A stretch of DNA of 42,798 nucleotides from a virus. Location: the IMG/VR virus record IMGVR_UViG_3300045988_053235, positions 1-42,798 of that record; one strand, 5' to 3'. The position numbers were made by a program, and so were the translations under genes. Shown one piece after another: positions 2,162 to 30,372 of this stretch. The number at the start of each line of letters is the position of its first letter. Positions within the stretch are counted from its first letter, which is position 1. The notes under the pieces were generated by a model, which was not told the DNA's origin, ran no database searches, and saw only the letters and a list, made by a program, of their open reading frames with translations.

Positions 2162-3392
2162 TATTCTATTGTCAGAAAAAATCGGCTCGGCTTTTTACGA
2201 TGTGGCTCACGATGTGTTCCATCATGGGCACACGCATTACGATTTCAGCGGCGGGCGCGGCTCATTAAAGTCGTCCACGGTGTCTGTACTCGTCCCCCTT
2301 CTGCTGATAAATAATCCGGGTACGCACGCGCTTGTGCTGCGCAAGGTAGCAAACACGATCCGCGATAGCGTTTATGCACAGTATATCTGGGCAATCGGCG
2401 AGTTGGGCATGGCGGCGTATTGGGAAGCCAAGGTTTCCCCGATGGAGCTGATCTACAAGCCGACAGGACAGAAGATCATGTTTCGCGGCGCTGATGACCC
2501 GATGAAGATCAAGTCTATCAAAGTCCCATTTGGCTATATCGCCGTGACGCACTTTGAAGAAAAAGATCAGTTTGCCGGACGGGCGGAAATCCGAAACATT
2601 TTGCAGTCGACCATGCGCGGTGGCTCGAAGTATTGGAACTTCGAGAGCTATAACCCGCCTATCTCGCGTGACAACTGGGCGAACAAGGACAGTTTGGAGG
2701 AACGCACCGACCGCTTTTGCCACAAGTCAACGTATCTTGAAGCACCGCCAGAGTGGCTGGGAGAACAGTTTTTAGCGGAGGCGGAACATCTCAAGGCCAC
2801 GGACGAGCGCGCGTATCAGCACGAATACCTCGGCATTCCGGTCGGAACGGGCGGCAATGTGTTTGACAAGCTGGAACTGCGGGGGATTACCGATGAAGAA
2901 GTCAAAAGTTTTGACCGAATCTATCAGGGGGTGGACTTCGGATGGTTCCCAGACCCGTTAGCTTTTATCCGGCTACATTACGACAAGGCAAGGGAAACGA
3001 TTTACCTGCTTGACGAGATATACCAGAATAAGCTTTCGAACGAGCAGAGCGCGACTATAATCAAACAGCGCGGATATGGCAATGTGCGCGTCATCTGTGA
3101 CAGCGCGGAGCCAAAGAGCGTGGCTGACCTACGGGCAATGGGATTGCCTGCGTATGAGGCGGTCAAGGGACCCGGCTCGGTCGAATACGGTATGAAGTTC
3201 TTGCAGAGAAGAACGATTGTCATTGATAGAAAACGGACGCCACATGCCTACGATGAGTTCGTGGGATACGAATATGAGAGAAACAAAGACGGCGACATTA
3301 TTAGCGGCTACCCTGACGCGAACAACCACCTGATTGACGCGACGAGGTATGCGTTAGAGCCTGTCAGCCGCAGAATGGGAGTTATTGCATGA
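2154..3392 (+). CDS. terL: Terminase large subunit (PBSX/Terminase_3-like)
   Basis: About 410 aa with ATPase N-terminal and nuclease C-terminal regions (ICDSAEPKS...DANNHLIDATRYAL). RBS AAGGTGG precedes ATG 2154. Confidence 0.93.
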   Translation: MSDILLSEKIGSAFYDVAHDVFHHGHTHYDFSGGRGSLKSSTVSVLVPLLLINNPGTHALVLRKVANTIRDSVYAQYIWAIGELGMAAYWEAKVSPMELIYKPTGQKIMFRGADDPMKIKSIKVPFGYIAVTHFEEKDQFAGRAEIRNILQSTMRGGSKYWNFESYNPPISRDNWANKDSLEERTDRFCHKSTYLEAPPEWLGEQFLAEAEHLKATDERAYQHEYLGIPVGTGGNVFDKLELRGITDEEVKSFDRIYQGVDFGWFPDPLAFIRLHYDKARETIYLLDEIYQNKLSNEQSATIIKQRGYGNVRVICDSAEPKSVADLRAMGLPAYEAVKGPGSVEYGMKFLQRRTIVIDRKRTPHAYDEFVGYEYERNKDGDIISGYPDANNHLIDATRYALEPVSRRMGVIA

Positions 3393-4819
3393 GCAGTGCA
3401 GTTATCCAAAAGTTAAAAGAACTTGGCTATACGACAATCCCGGAAGATTTTTACAGCCAAGTTGACCTCTGGAAGTCCTGGTATGTTGGGAAAGTAAAGG
3501 ATTTTCACAGATACAGAGAATATAACGGGCATGAGTGGGTGAAAAAGAAGCGGGCTTCGCTCGGAATGGGAAAGAAAGTCTGCGAAGATTGGGCAAATCT
3601 GCTCATGAACGAAAAGGTTAAAATCACGCTTGAAGGCAAAAAAGAACAGGAATTTATTGATCGCATTTTGGAAGAAAACAACTTTACTGTAAAAGCAAAC
3701 GAAATGCAGGAAATGAAGTCCGCGCTCGGAACGGTTGCATATGTACCGCGCGTCATTGGACAGAAAGTAAACGACTACGACGCTCCGATTCCCGGAAGTG
3801 CGGAAGACATTGCAATCGACTATGTGACGATGGAGCACATTTACCCGCTTTCGTGGCGAAATGGCGTGATTACAGAGTGCGCATTTGATAGCGTTGTAAC
3901 ACGGCTCGGACATAAGTATTTGTTCCTGCAAATCTTTAAAAAAGAGCGGAATGGAAAATACACAATCGAAAACAGCATTTATTTGTACGAGAATGAAACG
4001 CTGTCGGAAGTTAGCCTTGCATCCGTTGATGGCTTTGAGCATATCCCGAGTGTCGTTCATACAGGGAGCGCAGAAAAGCAATTTGTGATTGATCGACCGA
4101 ACATCGCAAACAATTTTGATTACCTCTTGCCAGTCGGTGTTCCTGTTTATGCAAATGCTCTTGATGTGCTGGAAAGTGTAGACAAGGCGTTTAACTGCTA
4201 TGGCAACGAGTTTGACAATGGCGCGTTGCTGCTGATGGTAAAAATGCCAGCAACAAGGTATGAGGACGGGAAACCGACTTTGAACAATAACGATAGTAGG
4301 TTTTACCTTCTCCCAGAGGACACGCAGCAAGGGAACGTTGTCGAACCAATTTCCCCACAGTTAAGGACCCAGCAGTTAAATATCGGGTTGCAAGACCAGC
4401 TCAATATTCTTTCAAGCAAGTGCGGGTTTGGCGAGACCTATTATCGGTTTAGTGGAGATAGCATTGCTACGGCTACGCAGGTCATCAGCGAGAACAGCAC
4501 CATGTTCCGCACGATCAAAAAGCATGAAATTATCCTCGAGCAGGCGCTCGTGGAGCTGTGCCGTGTTCTTCTCCGGCTCGGGAATACTGCAATGAATGCA
4601 GGGCTTGACGAAAACGTTGAAATCTCCATCGACTTTGACGATTCAATCATCGAGGACAAGCAGACGGACTTTGCCCGAGATCTCCAGCTCCTGAACGCCA
4701 ACATCATGAACGACTGGGAGTTCCGGGCAAAGTGGATGAACGAGGATGAGGCCACCGCAAAGGCAGCACTGCCAAAGATGCAGGACATGGTGGACGAAGA
4801 GCAGAACGAGGTCGAATAA
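3389..4819 (+). CDS. Portal protein (SPP1 gp6-like)
   Basis: 476 aa, immediately after terL with an ATGA overlap. Size and sequence style fit siphoviral portals. Confidence 0.88.
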   Translation: MSSAVIQKLKELGYTTIPEDFYSQVDLWKSWYVGKVKDFHRYREYNGHEWVKKKRASLGMGKKVCEDWANLLMNEKVKITLEGKKEQEFIDRILEENNFTVKANEMQEMKSALGTVAYVPRVIGQKVNDYDAPIPGSAEDIAIDYVTMEHIYPLSWRNGVITECAFDSVVTRLGHKYLFLQIFKKERNGKYTIENSIYLYENETLSEVSLASVDGFEHIPSVVHTGSAEKQFVIDRPNIANNFDYLLPVGVPVYANALDVLESVDKAFNCYGNEFDNGALLLMVKMPATRYEDGKPTLNNNDSRFYLLPEDTQQGNVVEPISPQLRTQQLNIGLQDQLNILSSKCGFGETYYRFSGDSIATATQVISENSTMFRTIKKHEIILEQALVELCRVLLRLGNTAMNAGLDENVEISIDFDDSIIEDKQTDFARDLQLLNANIMNDWEFRAKWMNEDEATAKAALPKMQDMVDEEQNEVE

Positions 4820-5211
4820 TGGGCGGACGCGGCGCAAGCAGCGGAATGAGCGAAAAGGGCAAGCATTACGGGAGCGAGTTTAGATCGGTCTTGCAGGATG
4901 GAAATATTAAATTCGTCAAGCCAAAAAGCGGTTCTGCAACTGCACCATTGGAAACAATGACACGCGGGCGGGTGTATGTAACAGTTAATGCGGCTGATGA
5001 ATTGAAATTCATTTCGTACTACGACAATCAGAACAAGCGCACAAAGACTATTGATTTGACAAAGCCGCACAAAGGAGTTTTGCCACATACCCACCACGGG
5101 TACGAACACTTTGAAAATGACAGCAAAAAGGGATTTGCAAACCTGACAACCGAAGAAAAGGCAATGGTTGCAAGGGTTCGCAAACTATGGTACAATCGGC
5201 ATAGCAAGTAG
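4819..5211 (+). CDS. MGGRG-leader protein 1 (130 aa)
   Basis: TAATG overlap with portal. N-terminus is MGGRGASSG. The body (NIKFVKPKSGSATAPLETMTRGRVYVTVN...HTHHGYEH) resembles domains I recall at the C-termini of MuF-type proteins. Confidence 0.75.
   Translation: MGGRGASSGMSEKGKHYGSEFRSVLQDGNIKFVKPKSGSATAPLETMTRGRVYVTVNAADELKFISYYDNQNKRTKTIDLTKPHKGVLPHTHHGYEHFENDSKKGFANLTTEEKAMVARVRKLWYNRHSK
5168..5196 (+). promoter_or_regulatory. Near-consensus sigma-A type promoter with extended -10
   Basis: TTGCAA (5168-5173), 17-nt spacer, TGgTACAAT (5188-5196). Predicted start is about 5203-5204. Confidence 0.6.
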
Positions 5212-5270
5212 TAATGTAAGCGGAGCATTCGGGGGAACCCGTTGTCCCGGTTCAAATCCGGGCGCTTGCT
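5204..5270 (+). ncRNA. tRNA-like RNA lacking an anticodon loop
   Basis: Acceptor 5204-5210 pairs with 5263-5269. D arm is AATG/CATT with a GG-containing loop. T arm is CCCGG-TTCAAAT-CCGGG (5246-5262). The anticodon arm is replaced by CGGG-GGAA-CCCG (5230-5241). Confidence 0.55.
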
Positions 5271-5313
5271 ATGCCGTAAGGTACAGAAATGTATCTTGCG
5301 GCATTTTTATTTT
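5271..5313 (+). terminator. Rho-independent terminator
   Basis: 14-bp stem ATGCCGTAAGGTAC / GTATCTTGCGGCAT (two G-U pairs), loop AGAAAT, then TTTTATTTT. Confidence 0.8.
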
Positions 5314-5331
5314 GCGGGAGGTGTTTACATT

Positions 5332-5685
5332 ATGGGTGGTAGAGGTGGGGCTGGCGGCGGCAATAGCCGTAGAATCTTGGCCTTTGACGTTGATATGGAC
5401 GGAGCAGTAGTGAACTACGTCTTGAGAAACGGAAAGGTTTACCGAAATGATGGGGAGCCTATTGCGCTCCAGCCGCAAAAAGTGATCGAAAACGCCAAAA
5501 AACTCGGGTACTCCGTGAAAACGTATAACAAAAAGGAATATGAAGAGCGGGAAAAATCCCGAAAAGAGGACCGGCGGATAACTGATGAATTTTTGAACGG
5601 GATGGACACGCAAATTGGCGGGAATAGGCGCGACCAGCGGATGGAGCTTATCGGAAACAGGGCAGCAAAGAGGAGGCGGAGATAA
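5332..5685 (+). CDS. MGGRG-leader protein 2 (117 aa), very basic C-terminus
   Basis: RBS GGGAGG, then ATG 5332. N-terminus MGGRGGAGGG. C-terminus NRAAKRRRR. Confidence 0.7.
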   Translation: MGGRGGAGGGNSRRILAFDVDMDGAVVNYVLRNGKVYRNDGEPIALQPQKVIENAKKLGYSVKTYNKKEYEEREKSRKEDRRITDEFLNGMDTQIGGNRRDQRMELIGNRAAKRRRR

Positions 5686-6360
5686 GTGGTAAACTTCGAG
5701 AACCTCGACAAGTTTGCTTTCCCTGGCGCGGGAAAATACAACATCCCCCAAATCGAGCCAGTAACCGAATACCCGCATGGTGAGTTTATCCCTGTCAACT
5801 ACCATTACACCGAAAAGGACCCAGGGAGTAAAAACGTCCACTTTTTTGTAGACGATTATCAGTTTGTCCGCCACTGGAATGCCCCGGACAAATACATACC
5901 GAAGCTGTCACAGTTTGCGGCGGTATGTGCGCCGGACTTCTCGACCTACACCGATATGCCCCTAGCGATGCAGATATACAACCATTACCGCAAGCATTGG
6001 TTGGCGGCGTACTGGCAGCTGCATGGTATGACCGTCTACCCGACCATATCGTGGAGTGACGAGGATAGCTATAGCTGGTGCTTCGACGGTGAGCCTGTTG
6101 GCAGCATTGTGGCCGTATCATCCGTAGGGACACAGGTCAGCAAGGAGAGCAAACGCCTATTTTTGCGTGGCTATGATGAGATGATGCGGCGGCTAGAGCC
6201 GTCGTGGGTCATATTTCACGGCAAGGTGCCGGAAGAATGCGACTGGAACGTGATACGGGTGCAGCCGCACTACAAAAGTATAAGAGAGAGGGTGAGCAAA
6301 AAATGGGAGGTCGTGGCGGACAAGGAGGGGCCTATGATGGATACAGTGTCGATTACCTAA
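5686..6360 (+). CDS. DUF4417-like protein
   Basis: GTG start after AGGAGG. Sequence VHFFVDDYQFVRHWNAPDKY...PDFSTYTDMPLAMQIYNHYRKHW matches my memory of DUF4417. Confidence 0.65.
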   Translation: MVNFENLDKFAFPGAGKYNIPQIEPVTEYPHGEFIPVNYHYTEKDPGSKNVHFFVDDYQFVRHWNAPDKYIPKLSQFAAVCAPDFSTYTDMPLAMQIYNHYRKHWLAAYWQLHGMTVYPTISWSDEDSYSWCFDGEPVGSIVAVSSVGTQVSKESKRLFLRGYDEMMRRLEPSWVIFHGKVPEECDWNVIRVQPHYKSIRERVSKKWEVVADKEGPMMDTVSIT

Positions 6361-7862: not shown

Positions 7863-7924
7863 TATTCTTCTTCCCTTTCGCACGGTGATGTGGTAAAATA
7901 ATCACAAATAAATAAGCGCCCATA

Positions 7925-7996
7925 GTGCAATCGAGCACGTGGAAGTGGCACGAAGAGCCAACTGACTATGTTTGTAGTCGGTTGGCTCTTTTTTAT
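7925..7996 (+). promoter_or_regulatory. Conserved element copy A: AATCGA-loop hairpin + GAAGTGGCA box + terminator
   Basis: Hairpin GTGC-AATCGA-GCAC (7925-7938), GAAGTGGCA box, stem AAGAGCCAAC (7953-7962) / GTTGGCTCTT (7981-7990), then a T-run. Confidence 0.6.
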
Positions 7997-8022
7997 TTTT
8001 CGACAAGGAGCGTTGGCTTGGT

Positions 8023-28908: not shown

Positions 28909-28954
28909 TTGCAGATAAATTGCAGATAAATTGCAGATGAAATTACAGATGAAA
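28909..28954 (+). repeat. attP arm-type repeats (right), 4 tandem units
   Basis: TTGCAGATAAA, TTGCAGATAAA, TTGCAGATGAAA, TTACAGATGAAA. These overlap the 3' end of int. Confidence 0.6.
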
Positions 28955-29956
28955 TTCGGATTCAAAAAAGCCGTCGACGGCATCTGCCACTGCTACGGCT
29001 TTATCATCCATGGTGTGCTGATATACGTTTTTTAGCATGTTGTTTGTGGAGTGCCCCATGCGCTCCATTGCGTATTTATCGGGGACATTGAGCCTGAGCA
29101 TGACCGATGCGTTTACATGGCGCAGGTCGTGGAAGCGGAACGGCTGAACTCCGCAGCGGGCACACGCGCGTTGCAGATGCTTATACAGGACATTTCTGGT
29201 TGCGTGGACAATAAACTCATCTGTGCGCGGTGTTGCGTCAAGCAGCCCCATAATATACGGCGGCACTTTTAGTTTTCTGTTGCCGCTGTAGGTTTTTGGC
29301 TGCTTGAGCTGCGGGCCCGTCTCACCGTCTACCATTGCTTGTTTGATCGCCAGGATATCGTCGTCAAGGCAATCCCATGTTAGACCTCTGATCTCCGATG
29401 TACGGAGGCCGAGCCAGACGGCCAGAAGAAAAGGCAATTCAAACGCTGTGCCTCTGCAGTCTTCGTGTAAGGTTCTGATCTCTTCCATGGTAGGGATTTT
29501 GATTTTAGGTGCTTCCTTCTGCGGCAAAGATATGCGGAACACTTTATCCGGGCATTCCTCCGACATTGCCGCCGTGAATAGGCCGTAAGCGTTGCGGACG
29601 TACTTAGGGGACTTTTCCCGCGCCATCTTATTCACGGCACGCTGCACGCGATCCTGCGTCAACGCGGAGCACTTAACGCTCATCAGCTCCGGGAAAACCA
29701 CCTTGCGGAGTTTTCTGTATCCGTTGACGGTGGAGGGGGAGAGTATCGCGTCCTTGCTGTCGATGTATCGGTCGATAGCGTCTCCGACTGTGCGCTCAGA
29801 CGCACGCGCGGCAGACTTCGCGCCGGACTTCAACGCGGCAGCTTCATTCTCCGCTTGCCGCTTGGTAGGCGCTGTGACGGACACGCGCTTTCCGTCTACC
29901 ATGACGCTGACATTCCAATTGCCGGACGGTAATAGTTTTGCTTTTGGTATTTTCAT
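28943..29956 (-). CDS. int: Tyrosine integrase
   Basis: Start is MKIPKAKLLPSGNW after GGAGGGGG. C-terminal sequence FRFHDLRHVNASVMLRLNVPDKYAMERMGHSTNNMLKNVYQH carries the HxxR...Y catalytic pattern. Confidence 0.92.
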   Translation of the reverse strand: MKIPKAKLLPSGNWNVSVMVDGKRVSVTAPTKRQAENEAAALKSGAKSAARASERTVGDAIDRYIDSKDAILSPSTVNGYRKLRKVVFPELMSVKCSALTQDRVQRAVNKMAREKSPKYVRNAYGLFTAAMSEECPDKVFRISLPQKEAPKIKIPTMEEIRTLHEDCRGTAFELPFLLAVWLGLRTSEIRGLTWDCLDDDILAIKQAMVDGETGPQLKQPKTYSGNRKLKVPPYIMGLLDATPRTDEFIVHATRNVLYKHLQRACARCGVQPFRFHDLRHVNASVMLRLNVPDKYAMERMGHSTNNMLKNVYQHTMDDKAVAVADAVDGFFESEFHL

Positions 29957-30372
29957 CAAATCCCCCTCCAAAATCCATAATCTATACAATGAAAATCAAT
30001 GTACACGCACCACACAGTGAGAAAGGCGATGATGAGGAACATTATAGCAATTACGCCGTTGCGAATACGCACTCCACGCCGCATGATCTCGATCATGTCG
30101 GCTTTCGCGTCAACATGGCGTTCCAGCTCGTCATTCCGCGCTTGCAAGGTTTCCTCGGTTGGCGTCAAGTGTTCGGAAATTCCGAACGCTTCATCAAGCG
30201 ATATTCCAAGCGCTTTGCAGATCGGCGCGACGGTGTAGATCGACGGAGACTTGGAAAACTTAGAAAAGAAATTCTGCACGGTGGACAGCGGCACGCCGGA
30301 AGCATCGGAAATGTCCTGATATGTTAGCTTTAGTTCTTCTTTACGGATTCTGCACACTTCTTGAATGTTCAT
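29956..30372 (-). CDS. XRE-family HTH protein with coiled coil and C-terminal transmembrane anchor
   Basis: HTH LTYQDISDASGVPLSTVQNFFSK. TM segment VIAIMFLIIAFLTVWCVYI. The stop overlaps the int start (TGATGA). Confidence 0.8.
   Translation of the reverse strand: MNIQEVCRIRKEELKLTYQDISDASGVPLSTVQNFFSKFSKSPSIYTVAPICKALGISLDEAFGISEHLTPTEETLQARNDELERHVDAKADMIEIMRRGVRIRNGVIAIMFLIIAFLTVWCVYIDFHCIDYGFWRGI

What the first reader, a model, noticed from the sequence alone, without database searches (positions are those of the whole stretch)
5168..5313. Self-contained promoter / anticodon-less tRNA-like RNA / terminator unit inside the head module
What the sequence shows:
- A near-consensus promoter: TTGCAA (5168-5173), 17-nt spacer, extended -10 TGgTACAAT (5188-5196).
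- The predicted transcription start (about 5203-5204) falls on the first base of a 66-nt cloverleaf-like fold.
- Acceptor stem 5204-5210 / 5263-5269, with 6 of 7 pairs including one G-U.
- D arm AATG (5213-5216) / CATT (5226-5229), with a 9-nt loop containing GG.
- A 4-5 nt variable region.
- A textbook T arm CCCGG-TTCAAAT-CCGGG (5246-5262).
- Where the anticodon arm should be, only a 4-bp stem capped by a GGAA tetraloop (5230-5241). There is no 7-nt loop and no anticodon.
- An alternative 54-nt fold (acceptor GTAAGCG 5216-5222 / CGCTTGC 5263-5269) keeps the same T arm and stub.
- A strong intrinsic terminator follows immediately: 14-bp stem at 5271-5304, then a T-run to 5313.
- CCA is not encoded.

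The alignment of promoter, start site, fold and terminator argues for an expressed small RNA rather than a random tRNA scar.

Hypotheses, all inference:
- A tRNA mimic that titrates or decoys a host tRNA-binding factor, such as a tRNA-targeting defence nuclease, a CCA-adding or repair enzyme, RNase P/Z or EF-Tu.
- A processing punctuation mark within the transcript.
- A cofactor for the neighbouring MGGRG or DUF4417 proteins.
Basis: partly seen in the sequence, partly recalled or inferred. Interest (0 to 1): 0.8.

Follow-up and report, generated by a model that had tools for sequence, protein, structure and literature searches.

The report
Phage-borne tRNA-shaped small RNA gene
This is a real, self-contained small-RNA gene: a divergent member of the known but functionally unexplained SpF41 family, carried by phages and phage satellites of Firmicutes, which folds like a tRNA without an anticodon and with a sealed acceptor end, so it most likely binds proteins as a tRNA look-alike.

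Summary
The promoter, 66-nt cloverleaf-like fold without an anticodon loop, 15-bp terminator and missing CCA all sit at the stated coordinates.

The element is not an orphan. It matches Rfam RF02435 (SpF41_sRNA) over its full length at 36.3 bits, below the family cut-off of 52. Syntenic relatives pass the cut-off, for example Streptococcus phage A25 at 99.6 bits.

Across 59 distinct relatives, 97.3% of pair cells are standard pairs, against about 40% in slid controls. The tRNA tertiary pairs G19:C56 and R15:Y48 covary. Position -1 pairs with the "discriminator" in 59 of 59, so the acceptor end is sealed.

The stub arm varies in sequence, and some members carry 16-28 nt insertions there. A TG-extended -10 is present in 72 of 75 members and a terminator in 70 of 75.

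In phages the gene abuts a small His-rich protein gene (phrog_9479) in 79 of 80 loci found by the protein alone. DUF4417 is a frequent neighbour. Streptococcus satellite-like islands carry the RNA without either protein.

Function is unproven. My best reading is an autonomously expressed tRNA-core mimic that binds proteins. It is a new member of a known kind. Its tRNA nature and phage linkage appear undescribed in the literature I could search.

The parts
4819..5211 (+). phrog_9479 gene (130 aa, starts MGGRGASSG, conserved PHTHHGYxHxEND cluster). Its last codons (W-Y-N-R-H-S-K-stop) encode the RNA's -10 box and first 8 nt.
   Evidence: PHROGs hit E=4.6e-50. 1092 homologues, no Pfam family. Alignment A4. 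50% identical to Streptococcus phage A25 gp23. 79 of 80 homologue loci carry the RNA abutting the gene end.
5168..5173 (+). -35 box TTGCAA
   Evidence: TTGnnn is kept 17 nt upstream of the -10 in relatives.
5188..5196 (+). TG-extended -10 box TGgTACAAT
   Evidence: 72 of 75 non-redundant family members have a TG-extended TAnnnT box. The viral scans that found many of them did not require a promoter.
5197..5202 (+). CGGCAU leader. It lies upstream of the predicted start and is identical to the end of the terminator's 3' arm. It can pair with 5271-5276 in transcripts that arrive from upstream.
   Evidence: Sequence. Fold of 5160-5313. 7 of 70 unique members, all of this clade, switch by MFE. Inference only.
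5203..5270 (+). tRNA-shaped body, from A-1 to U73. The predicted start (seventh nt after the -10) is A5203.
   Evidence: Rfam RF02435 full-length match covering 5199-5305. Model R2 hit at 5202-5271. Covariation.
5204..5211 (+). Acceptor 5' strand GCAAGU, bulged A5210, and G5211 (pairs with C5263).
   Evidence: 5 of 6 acceptor pairs show changes on both sides. A:C at 5210/5263 in 58 of 59. The G5211:C5263 pair is my reading of the alignment; G5211 was fixed by my search pattern, and C5263 is nearly invariant.
5214..5228 (+). D arm: stem 5214-5216 with 5226-5228, and a loop containing A14 (5218), A15 (5219) and G19-like G5222.
   Evidence: D stem 99.4% paired with 2 of 3 pairs covarying. G5222 covaries with T-loop C5253 as C:G 29, A:U 11, G:U 11, U:G 7. 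A5219:U5245 behaves as a Levitt pair, G:C 30 and A:U 10.
5230..5241 (+). Stub in place of the anticodon arm: CGGG / GGAA / CCCG.
   Evidence: All 4 pairs covary, 99.2% paired. The loop sequence is not conserved. 16-28 nt insertions occur here in L453 and L427.
5246..5262 (+). T arm CCCGG-UUCAAAU-CCGGG.
   Evidence: Four of the five stem pairs were fixed by my search pattern. Phage A25 shows a compensated CAGG/CCUG variant.
5263..5270 (+). Acceptor 3' strand CGCUUGC plus U73, which pairs with A-1.
   Evidence: -1:73 is paired in 59 of 59 members with 5 pair types.
5271..5313 (+). Intrinsic terminator: 15-bp stem at 5271-5304, GAAA loop, U-tract at 5305-5313.
   Evidence: 70 of 75 members have a hairpin plus T-run here, with unrelated sequences.
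5332..5685 (+). Downstream orf (117 aa, MGGRGGAGG...). No family found. Absent from most relatives, so not part of the conserved unit.
5686..6360 (+). DUF4417 gene (phrog_940 'nuclease'). A frequent but not obligate neighbour.
   Evidence: Pfam E=2.9e-56. 42 of 75 RNA loci have it within 3.5 kb. Only 20 of 80 DUF4417 loci have the RNA.

Best explanation
Window 5168-5313 is an autonomous small-RNA transcription unit, a 'moron' that encodes an RNA instead of a protein. It is a divergent member of the SpF41 family (Rfam RF02435).

**Anatomy**
- A host-type sigma-A promoter lies inside the last codons of the phrog_9479 gene. It would start transcription at about A5203, the first nucleotide of the closing helix.
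- The ~105-nt product folds into the tRNA core: acceptor helix stacked on a T arm, and a D arm whose loop docks on the T loop.
- It has only a 4-bp stub where the anticodon arm should be.
- Its acceptor end is sealed by a -1:73 pair followed directly by the terminator hairpin. No CCA is encoded and no single-stranded discriminator is available.

**Mechanism I commit to**
- It therefore cannot decode, and is unlikely to be aminoacylated.
- I think it works as a stable, poorly processable structural mimic of the tRNA 'top half'. It would be bound by proteins that read tRNA shape rather than sequence.
- Host tRNA end-processing enzymes, RNase Z or RNase P, are the candidate partners with some experimental support.
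- It would be made from the prophage independently of the late operon.

**Secondary feature of this phage's clade**
- Operon transcripts coming from upstream carry CGGCAU (5197-5202).
- This leader can lengthen the acceptor helix at the expense of the terminator's base.
- The unit would then terminate its own transcripts but let head-gene transcripts through.

**Shown:** the anatomy, conservation, covariation, family relationship and gene linkage.
**Inferred:** the start site, expression in this phage, protein binding, and the terminator bypass.
For: **Family**
- Full-length RF02435 match at 36.3 bits, E=3.8e-4.
- Relatives pass the cut-off of 52: PICI-like L203 at 114.3, Javan83 at 105.8, phage A25 at 99.6, and Clostridia members at 57.6-71.4.
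- A25's copy sits after a phrog_9479 gene 50% identical to the window's.

**Fold**
- 97.3% of 1180 cells are paired, against 35-45% when partners are slid.
- 14 of 20 pairs change on both sides; 0 of 500 shuffles reach the observed values.

**tRNA core**
- G19:C56-like pair: C:G 29, A:U 11, G:U 11, U:G 7, other 1.
- Levitt-like pair: G:C 30, A:U 10.

**Not a tRNA**
- No ARAGORN call and no tRNA model match.
- -1:73 is paired in 59 of 59.
- The stub loop is variable and tolerates 16-28 nt insertions. This points to the acceptor/T/D core as the functional part.

**Autonomous unit**
- TG-extended -10 in 72 of 75 members and a terminator in 70 of 75.
- The distance from the -10 tracks the start of the closing helix in three subtypes with different helix lengths (by reading).
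- The window phage is temperate: integrase at 28943-29989.

**Experimental data on the pneumococcal member F41**
- A 103-nt RNA confirmed by Northern blot; its deletion attenuates sepsis progression in mice after intranasal challenge (PMC3395615).
- Present in only 4 of 385 strains (PMC12323649).
- In vitro-transcribed F41 pulls down RNase Z and Cbf1. It is the most enriched ncRNA in Cbf1 CLIP. It peaks in low-molecular-weight gradient fractions (PMC7196914).

**Terminator bypass**
- MFE and centroid of 5160-5313 form a 12-bp extended helix and a 10-bp hairpin 4-5 nt from the U-tract.
- The transcript from 5204 keeps the full 15-bp terminator.
Against: - There is no expression data for this phage.
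- RNase Z was also pulled down by most csRNAs, which are not tRNA-like, so that contact may be unspecific.
- No host factor has been shown to be titrated.
- The near-perfect linkage to phrog_9479 (79 of 80) hints at a phage-encoded partner rather than a host one.
- Tandem copies without an intervening terminator (L380, L456, L344) look like a tRNA operon. They suggest some members may be processed by RNase P or RNase Z rather than resist them.
- The terminator bypass is predicted by MFE in only 7 of 70 unique sequences. Even within the clade it fails where A-3 is G.
Confidence: 0.35

Rival explanations
1. The RNA is the dedicated partner of the phrog_9479 protein, as a ribonucleoprotein, a substrate, or an antitoxin-like inhibitor. 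The cassette phrog_9479 + RNA (often with DUF4417) moves as one functional module. Streptococcus satellite islands would carry the RNA alone to intercept the helper phage's protein.
For: - 79 of 80 loci retrieved by the protein alone have the RNA abutting the gene end.
- The stop codon lies inside the acceptor stem, and the -10 box is the W-Y-N codons.
- The pair is kept from Streptococcus phage A25, where it sits before terS, to gut Clostridia phages, where it sits after the portal gene. The cassette therefore relocates intact.
- PICI-type loci have the RNA without the protein.
Against: - Physical overlap alone forces co-inheritance.
- The RNA is conserved and expressed without phrog_9479 in S. 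pneumoniae and other streptococcal islands.
- The phrog_9479 model (pLDDT 74) matches no RNA-binding or other fold in PDB or BFVD.
- No Pfam, NCBIfam or PADLOC family matches.
Confidence: 0.25
2. It is mainly a cis-acting element. The terminator insulates neighbouring operons. The tRNA-like fold stabilises the 3' end of upstream mRNA, or serves as an RNase P/Z cleavage mark on it ('punctuation'). The small RNA is then a by-product.
For: - It always lies at a module boundary, either the end of the early block before terS or between the portal and head genes.
- A terminator is always present.
- Tandem copies resemble tRNA-type processing sites.
Against: - A plain terminator would suffice for insulation.
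- A consensus promoter positioned exactly at the first paired nucleotide is conserved in 72 of 75 members.
- The tRNA tertiary pairs are kept by covariation.
- The sealed -1:73 pair is expected to hinder RNase P and RNase Z, from general knowledge of their substrates.
- F41 accumulates as an abundant stable RNA.
Confidence: 0.15
3. It is the leader or attenuator of downstream late genes, analogous to lambda PR'-6S RNA-tR'. A constitutive promoter makes a short terminated RNA until a phage antiterminator, perhaps the upstream phrog_9479 or phrog_3511 product, lets polymerase read on into terS or the head genes.
For: - In Streptococcus phages the order is phrog_3511, DUF4417, phrog_9479, promoter-RNA-terminator, then terS-terL-portal.
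- In PICI-type loci phrog_3511 directly precedes the RNA.
- In the window no other promoter-like site lies between the unit and the downstream head genes up to 8420, apart from a 9/12 match at 5422 inside the MGGRG orf.
Against: - In the window, terminase and portal genes lie upstream of the unit, so it cannot be the start of the late operon.
- A leader has no need for a covarying tRNA tertiary core.
- No antiterminator family was detected.
Confidence: 0.08
4. It is a conventional base-pairing regulatory sRNA. The tRNA-like shape only provides stability.
For: - Deleting pneumococcal F41 changed expression of a carbohydrate ABC transporter operon and reduced virulence (PMC3395615).
Against: - No long conserved single-stranded segment exists.
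- The conserved unpaired bases are exactly those of the tRNA tertiary core.
- The only loop free to pair, the stub loop, is hypervariable.
- A later target-prediction study dropped F41.
Confidence: 0.1
5. It is a decaying remnant of a phage tRNA gene with no function.
For: - Clear tRNA ancestry of the fold.
- No anticodon.
Against: - 59 distinct variants across two bacterial classes keep all helices by compensatory change.
- They also keep a promoter and a terminator.
- One member is abundantly expressed.
Confidence: 0.02

Closest known systems
SpF41 / F41 / srn277 sRNA of Streptococcus pneumoniae TIGR4 (Rfam RF02435)
   Same: - Same architecture end to end: closing stem, small hairpin, T-arm hairpin, terminator.
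- Same promoter geometry.
- The two are linked by a continuous series of relatives that pass the family cut-off.
   Different: - The window copy scores only 36.3 bits against the cut-off of 52.
- It has a GGAA-capped stub, a much longer terminator, and a shorter 5' closing helix.
- It sits in the head module of a gut Clostridia phage rather than in a streptococcal island.
- In the papers I could search, F41 is not described as tRNA-like or phage-linked.
Canonical tRNA
   Same: - A 7-bp acceptor helix stacked on a 5-bp T stem with a UUCAAAU loop.
- A D stem and a GG-containing D loop.
- U8/A14, R15:Y48 and G19:C56 equivalents, the last two covarying.
   Different: - No anticodon loop.
- A bulged A in the acceptor stem.
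- -1:73 is always paired.
- No CCA, and a terminator is fused to the 3' end.
- Not detected by ARAGORN or the Rfam tRNA model.
mascRNA / MEN-beta tRNA-like small RNAs of vertebrates (from my own knowledge, not tested here)
   Same: - A non-decoding tRNA-like RNA with a stunted anticodon arm.
- Recognised by tRNA-processing enzymes.
   Different: - Those RNAs are excised from long transcripts by RNase P and RNase Z and receive CCA.
- This one has its own promoter and a sealed acceptor end.
- No homology.
tRNA-like domain of tmRNA, and bacterial Y RNA YrlA (from my own knowledge)
   Same: - They use the acceptor/T-arm/D-loop core of tRNA as a protein-binding module without an anticodon.
   Different: - tmRNA has a G3:U70 pair, a CCA end, a tag reading frame and pseudoknots.
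- YrlA is circularly permuted: its ends emerge from the anticodon-side stem, and it sits next to rsr.
- Neither was detected here.
Phage morons, and the lambda PR'-6S RNA-tR' unit (from my own knowledge)
   Same: - A promoter-product-terminator unit embedded among late genes, expressed independently of them.
- A short constitutive terminated RNA.
   Different: - The product here is a structured RNA rather than a protein.
- No Q-like factor was identified.

Membership tests
Rfam RF02435 SpF41_sRNA | Score at or above the curated gathering threshold (52 bits) with the family covariance model | tested here: not met
   36.3 bits, E=3.8e-4, model positions 1-105 of 105. No gathering-level hit anywhere in the window.
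Rfam RF02435 SpF41_sRNA | Full-length architecture: closing stem, small hairpin, T-arm-like hairpin, intrinsic terminator | tested here: met
   End-to-end alignment to the model. Every helix is supported by covariation.
Rfam RF02435 SpF41_sRNA | Homology to accepted members (intermediate sequences, shared synteny) | tested here: met
   Members found with the same sequence patterns pass the cut-off: L203 114.3, L378 105.8, A25 99.6, L365 71.4, L212 66.2, L205 58.8 bits. All sit after a phrog_9479 homologue or in a PICI-like island.
Rfam RF02435 SpF41_sRNA | Expressed as a discrete RNA of about 100 nt | not testable with these tools
   Shown only for pneumococcal F41 (PMC3395615, PMC7196914).
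tRNA | Anticodon arm with a 7-nt loop | tested here: not met
   A 4-bp stem with a tetraloop at 5230-5241. The loop is variable across the family.
tRNA | Recognised by tRNA detectors | tested here: not met
   ARAGORN finds 0 genes. No RF00005 match at E<=10 in 5000-5500.
tRNA | Unpaired discriminator followed by CCA (encoded or addable) | tested here: not met
   No CCA. -1:73 is paired in 59 of 59 members. The terminator stem starts at position 74.
tRNA | Tertiary core (T loop, G19:C56, R15:Y48, U8/A14) | tested here: met
   Covariation at 5222:5253 and 5219:5245. U8 and A14 are invariant, but both were fixed by my search pattern.
tmRNA | tRNA-like domain plus a tag-peptide reading frame | tested here: not met
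   ARAGORN finds no tmRNA. No Rfam tmRNA match.
Bacterial Y RNA (YrlA) | Ro/Rsr-binding stem formed by the RNA ends, with the tRNA-like module internal | tested here: not met
   The ends emerge from the acceptor helix. No other Rfam family matched 5000-5500 at E<=1. An rsr neighbour was not searched for.
Type III toxin-antitoxin antitoxin RNA | Tandem ~36-nt repeats between a promoter and a terminator, followed by a ToxN-like toxin gene | tested here: not met
   A single 68-nt unit is present. The downstream gene varies. No PADLOC hit for the neighbours.
Phage moron | Own promoter and own terminator, inserted between late genes | tested here: met
   These are predicted signals only.
Phage moron | Expressed from the prophage | not testable with these tools
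   The phage has an integrase. F41 is expressed in uninduced TIGR4.

The most novel reading that the evidence does not exclude
The SpF41 family is a phage- and satellite-borne mimic of the tRNA core that works with, or against, a dedicated small His-rich protein (phrog_9479). That would make it a previously unrecognised RNA-protein module of Firmicutes phages. Satellites would carry the RNA alone to interfere with their helper, or the module would neutralise a tRNA-shape-reading host defence or processing enzyme. In the window's clade the unit would also carry a terminator that stops only transcripts started at its own promoter.
Probability: 0.25. Interest if true: 0.8.

Novelty: new member of a known kind. 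Interest (0 to 1): 0.58.

Why it matters
SpF41/F41 is on record as a virulence-associated pneumococcal sRNA with no mechanism. This analysis adds four points about the family.

- **It is a genuine tRNA-core mimic.** The tertiary pairs are maintained by covariation.
- **It belongs to phages and phage satellites.** Hosts span Streptococcus, Gemella, Peptostreptococcus, Carnobacterium and gut Clostridia. It occurs in cultured phages such as A25, phiNJ2 and Dorea phage DO134P1.
- **Standard Rfam annotation misses the gut-phage branch.**
- **It is welded to an uncharacterised protein family** with more than 1000 members.

If the mimic titrates a tRNA-reading enzyme or partners with phrog_9479, it would be a widespread RNA-based phage function. 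It is directly testable in tractable systems: S. pyogenes phage A25 and S. pneumoniae TIGR4.

Tried and rejected
- **Alternative 54-nt fold** (GUAAGCG/CGCUUGC). It is the single-sequence MFE, but its pairing is lost in the two nearest homologues. Rejected.
- **tRNA or tmRNA gene.** No detector calls one.
- **First collection scan with the bare T arm**. It returned mostly true tRNAs and was uninformative.
- **phrog_9479 structure.** The model has pLDDT 74. No significant match in PDB (best E=0.77) or BFVD (best E=3.6e-3, TM 0.38).
- **DUF4417 structure.** pLDDT 51, too poor to search. No solved relative by sequence.
- **Family libraries.** PADLOC and NCBIfam gave nothing for phrog_9479, DUF4417, the MGGRG orf or the island neighbours. 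Pfam gave nothing for phrog_9479 or the MGGRG orf.
- **RNA as cofactor of DUF4417.** Weakened, because 60 of 80 DUF4417 loci lack the RNA even with the general model.
- **Leader/terminator competition as a family-wide feature.** Rejected. It is confined to the window's clade.
- **attP or integration-site copy of a tRNA 3' half.** Unlikely. The integrase is 24 kb away, the full cloverleaf is present, and G:U pairs mark a strand-specific RNA structure.
- **Literature searches** for a prior description of a phage tRNA-like decoy of this kind found none.
Full report
**1. The observation**

- The promoter scan reports TTGCAA, a 17-nt spacer, then TACAAT preceded by TG, at 5168-5196.
- It also reports a 15-pair terminator at 5271-5304 followed by TTTTTATTTT. 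This is one of the three strongest in the first 20 kb.
- ARAGORN finds no tRNA or tmRNA in the whole window.
- The region from 5204 to 5313 folds with z = -6.4 against shuffles.
- Single promoter-like or terminator-like sites are not enriched in this window: 14 against 16.2 expected, and 32 against 25 expected. The case therefore rests on the combination of features and on conservation.

**2. What it is**

- A scan of 5000-5500 against Rfam at a permissive threshold gives one meaningful hit. It is RF02435 SpF41_sRNA, at 5199-5305, covering model positions 1-105 of 105, at 36.3 bits and E = 3.8e-4. The family cut-off is 52. At gathering thresholds the window has no hit at all, so routine annotation would miss it.
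- Two pattern scans of viral contigs and one of genomes retrieved relatives. The patterns were based on the D-region and T-arm; only the genome scan also required the -10 box.
- After removing true tRNAs, 75 non-redundant members remain.
- Many pass the Rfam cut-off:

| Member | Bits |
|---|---|
| PICI-like island L203 | 114.3 |
| Streptococcus phage Javan83 | 105.8 |
| Streptococcus phage A25 | 99.6 |
| Clostridia member L365 | 71.4 |
| L212 | 66.2 |
| L340 | 64.8 |
| L331 | 63.5 |
| L205 | 58.8 |
| L275 | 57.6 |

  (all)
- The window copy is therefore a divergent member of a known family.
- Hosts named in genome records are many Streptococcus species, Gemella, Peptostreptococcus, Carnobacterium, Oscillospiraceae, Lachnospiraceae, Acetatifactor, Roseburia and Christensenellaceae.
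- Cultured phages that carry it include A25, Str01, A1, phiNJ2, phiST1, SA01, MissD, many Javan prophages and Dorea phage DO134P1.

**3. The fold**

I used a gapless alignment of 59 distinct members (A7; column k corresponds to window position 5201+k).

- The cloverleaf-like structure has 97.3% of 1180 cells as standard pairs. With partners slid by 1-3 columns the figure is 35-45%.
- 14 of 20 pairs show changes on both sides, 178 such cells in all.
- No shuffle out of 500 reaches the observed values. An earlier set of 26 gave the same picture.
- The acceptor stem, the D stem (AUG/CAU, GUG/CAC, GUA/UAC) and all four stub pairs covary.
- Four of the five T-stem pairs were fixed by my search pattern and say nothing. 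Phage A25 has a compensated CAGG/CCUG T stem.
- The alternative 54-nt fold is the MFE of the single sequence, but it is not kept in the closest homologues.

- **Tertiary pairs.** T-loop position 3 (5253) and a D-loop G (5222) covary as C:G 29, A:U 11, G:U 11, U:G 7, with one exception. This is the G19:C56 elbow pair of tRNA. Position 5219 and the base just before the T stem (5245) covary as G:C 30 and A:U 10, with U:U 18 in the streptococcal subtype. This is the R15:Y48 Levitt pair. The RNA almost certainly adopts the tRNA L-shape.
- **Sealed acceptor end.** The nucleotide before position 1 pairs with the 'discriminator' in 59 of 59 members, using five pair types. In streptococcal prophage copies the helix continues for about ten more nucleotides. 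The terminator follows immediately. The acceptor end is sealed and no CCA is encoded.
- **Variable stub.** The stub loop is variable. Some members have a 16- or 28-nt insertion there that forms an extra hairpin. Selection acts on the acceptor/T/D core, not on anything resembling an anticodon.

**4. Transcription signals**

- 72 of 75 members have a TG-extended TAnnnT box, and 70 of 75 have a hairpin plus T-run after the fold. The terminator sequences are unrelated between clades.
- Two of the five exceptions, L344 and L349, are tandem copies.
- The viral scans did not require a promoter, yet every phage-type hit has one at a fixed distance.
- The seventh nucleotide after the -10 box is the first nucleotide of the closing helix in three subtypes: the gut type, the streptococcal prophage type with its long extension, and the island type (by reading).
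- The start site itself is an inference.

**5. Surroundings**

- The window is a temperate siphovirus genome. It encodes TerS (1712-2161), TerL, an SPP1-type portal, minor head protein 2 and an integrase at 28943-29989.
- The unit lies between phrog_9479 (4819-5211) and an orf without relatives (5332-5685). DUF4417 (5686-6360) follows.
- The phrog_9479 stop codon (5209-5211) lies inside the acceptor stem. The -10 box is its W-Y-N codons.
- Of 80 viral loci retrieved by the phrog_9479 protein alone, 79 have the RNA abutting the gene end. L442 has none.
- Of 75 non-redundant RNA loci:
  - 51 have a detectable phrog_9479 homologue immediately upstream;
  - 42 have DUF4417 within 3.5 kb;
  - 9 streptococcal island-type loci have neither, and instead follow a phrog_3511 orf.
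- Several of the loci with 'none detected' still encode a ...WYN C-terminus upstream (by reading).
- DUF4417 is not obligate. Only 20 of 80 DUF4417 loci carry the RNA.
- The cassette relocates as a unit:
  - In phage A25 and the Javan phages the order is phrog_3511, DUF4417, phrog_9479, RNA, terS, terL, portal.
  - In gut phages it is portal, phrog_9479, RNA, DUF4417, minor head protein, or DUF4417, phrog_9479, RNA.
- phrog_9479 has more than 1000 homologues, no Pfam family, and an invariant His cluster. Its model (pLDDT 74) has no structural match.
- DUF4417 is known only as a frequent fusion partner of the ParB-CTPase fold in phages (bioRxiv 10.1101/2025.10.10.680097).

**6. What is known experimentally about the family**

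- Pneumococcal F41 (srn277) is a 103-nt RNA between SP1142 and SP1143, confirmed by Northern blot.
- Its deletion attenuated progression to sepsis in mice after intranasal challenge. Tn-seq showed reduced fitness in the nasopharynx and blood (PMC3395615).
- It occurs in 4 of 385 strains (PMC12323649).
- In S. agalactiae it lies in strain-exclusive regions (PMC6064168).
- In vitro-transcribed F41 pulled down RNase Z and Cbf1/YhaM.
- It is the most enriched ncRNA in Cbf1 CLIP and runs more slowly on gels in a cbf1 mutant.
- It peaks in low-molecular-weight gradient fractions (PMC7196914).
- None of these papers, as far as the text searches show, calls it tRNA-like or phage-borne.

**7. How it most likely works**

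*Shown:* an independent-looking transcription unit; a tRNA core kept by secondary and tertiary covariation; a sealed acceptor end; a dispensable and variable stub; carriage by phages and satellites.

*Inferred:*
- The RNA is made from the prophage by host polymerase.
- It is stable, because both ends are base-paired.
- It acts as a protein-binding mimic of the tRNA top half.
- It cannot decode. It is unlikely to be charged, since it has no CCA, no free discriminator and no constant identity elements in the acceptor stem.
- The candidate partners are enzymes that read tRNA shape. RNase Z has the only, and weak, experimental support.

I put this at 0.35.

*Main rival (0.25):* the partner is phrog_9479, given the 79 of 80 linkage. 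Copies in islands without the protein argue against it, and the physical overlap makes co-inheritance automatic.

*Other rivals:*
- a cis-acting insulator or processing mark (0.15);
- a base-pairing sRNA (0.10);
- a lambda PR'-6S-tR'-like leader of late genes (0.08);
- a dead tRNA gene (0.02, effectively excluded by covariation).

**8. A clade-specific feature**

- In the window, CGGCAU (5197-5202) lies just upstream of the predicted start. It is identical to the end of the terminator's 3' arm, and both complement AUGCCG (5271-5276).
- Folding 5160-5313 gives, in both MFE and centroid, a 12-bp extended acceptor helix. The terminator is cut down to 10 bp and separated from the U-tract by 4-5 nt.
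- The RNA starting at 5204 keeps the full 15-bp terminator.
- Transcripts from the unit's own promoter would therefore terminate. Operon transcripts from upstream could read through into the head genes, which have no strong promoter-like site of their own before 8420.
- By MFE this switch appears in 7 of 70 unique members, all of this clade. It is a hypothesis that needs a reporter test.
- In this clade the T arm, acceptor 3' strand and terminator are identical among the three aligned phages, while the 5' half of the RNA differs (column identity in the alignment) and the flanking 1.6 kb is only 72-74% identical.
- The same 3' sequence runs on into the DUF4417 ribosome-binding site. This fits recent exchange of a DUF4417 cassette whose left boundary lies inside the RNA gene (inference).

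**9. Verdict**

- The interpretation as an expressed tRNA-like RNA is supported. The specific functions proposed are untested, and the proposed protein partners were the wrong neighbours.
- It is a new, divergent member of a known family.
- The family's tRNA-core nature, its phage and satellite distribution, and its welding to phrog_9479 are, as far as I could find, new and directly testable.

Noticed in passing
window 4819-4845 and 5332-5360; L110, L123, L124, L127, L178, L186 just upstream of position 3001: Several unrelated small proteins after the portal gene start with the same motif, MGGRG(A/G)SSG. These are phrog_9479, the 5332 orf, and truncated orfs. In many loci the DUF4417 gene begins right after a remnant ATGGGCGGACACGGCGCAAGCAGCGG... 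The DUF4417 start (ATGATTAACTTT) is constant while the upstream context changes completely. This looks like a mobile, homing-type DUF4417 cassette that lands next to this motif.
   Followed up: partly
window 7863-8000: A second possible promoter-RNA-terminator unit lies in the head module. It has a TG-extended -10-like TGTGGTAAAAT at about 7886-7896, about 55 nt of non-coding sequence, then an 18-bp terminator at 7952-7991 with a T-run. No Rfam match at E<=1.
   Followed up: partly
L212, L226, L221, L259, L268, L344, L349, L380, L381, L456, L458, L453: Tandem copies of the tRNA-like unit occur. Some are only 1-3 nt apart with no terminator between them, like a tRNA operon. The upstream copy in L212 has a different T loop (UGCAAUU).
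   Followed up: partly
L427 1924-1953; L453: Some members carry a 28-nt or 16-nt insertion in the stub loop. In L427 it forms an 8-bp hairpin with a 7-nt loop, ACAAAAC. The arm is rebuilt, but without a U33-type anticodon loop.
   Followed up: partly
L377 (phage A25) 4540-4575; L342, L357, L281, L291, L309, L311 downstream of the RNA: A conserved CCCCTCTTT motif lies between the RNA's terminator and terS in streptococcal prophages. It may be a packaging or late-regulation site.
   Followed up: no
L206 4701-5082: Three CRISPR-DR22 repeats (Rfam gathering-level hits) lie about 2 kb upstream of the SpF41-type RNA, on a streptococcal island-like viral contig.
   Followed up: no
L331 6218-6314 and 7002-7073; L205 2479-2646; L340 1368-1441: A skipping-rope RNA and true tRNA genes lie within a few kb of the SpF41-type RNA in some Clostridia phage loci.
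   Followed up: no
L203 7046-7447; L377 2946-3326: A phrog_3511 orf of unknown function directly precedes the RNA in streptococcal islands. In streptococcal phages it precedes the DUF4417-phrog_9479-RNA block. This is the position usually held by late regulators.
   Followed up: partly
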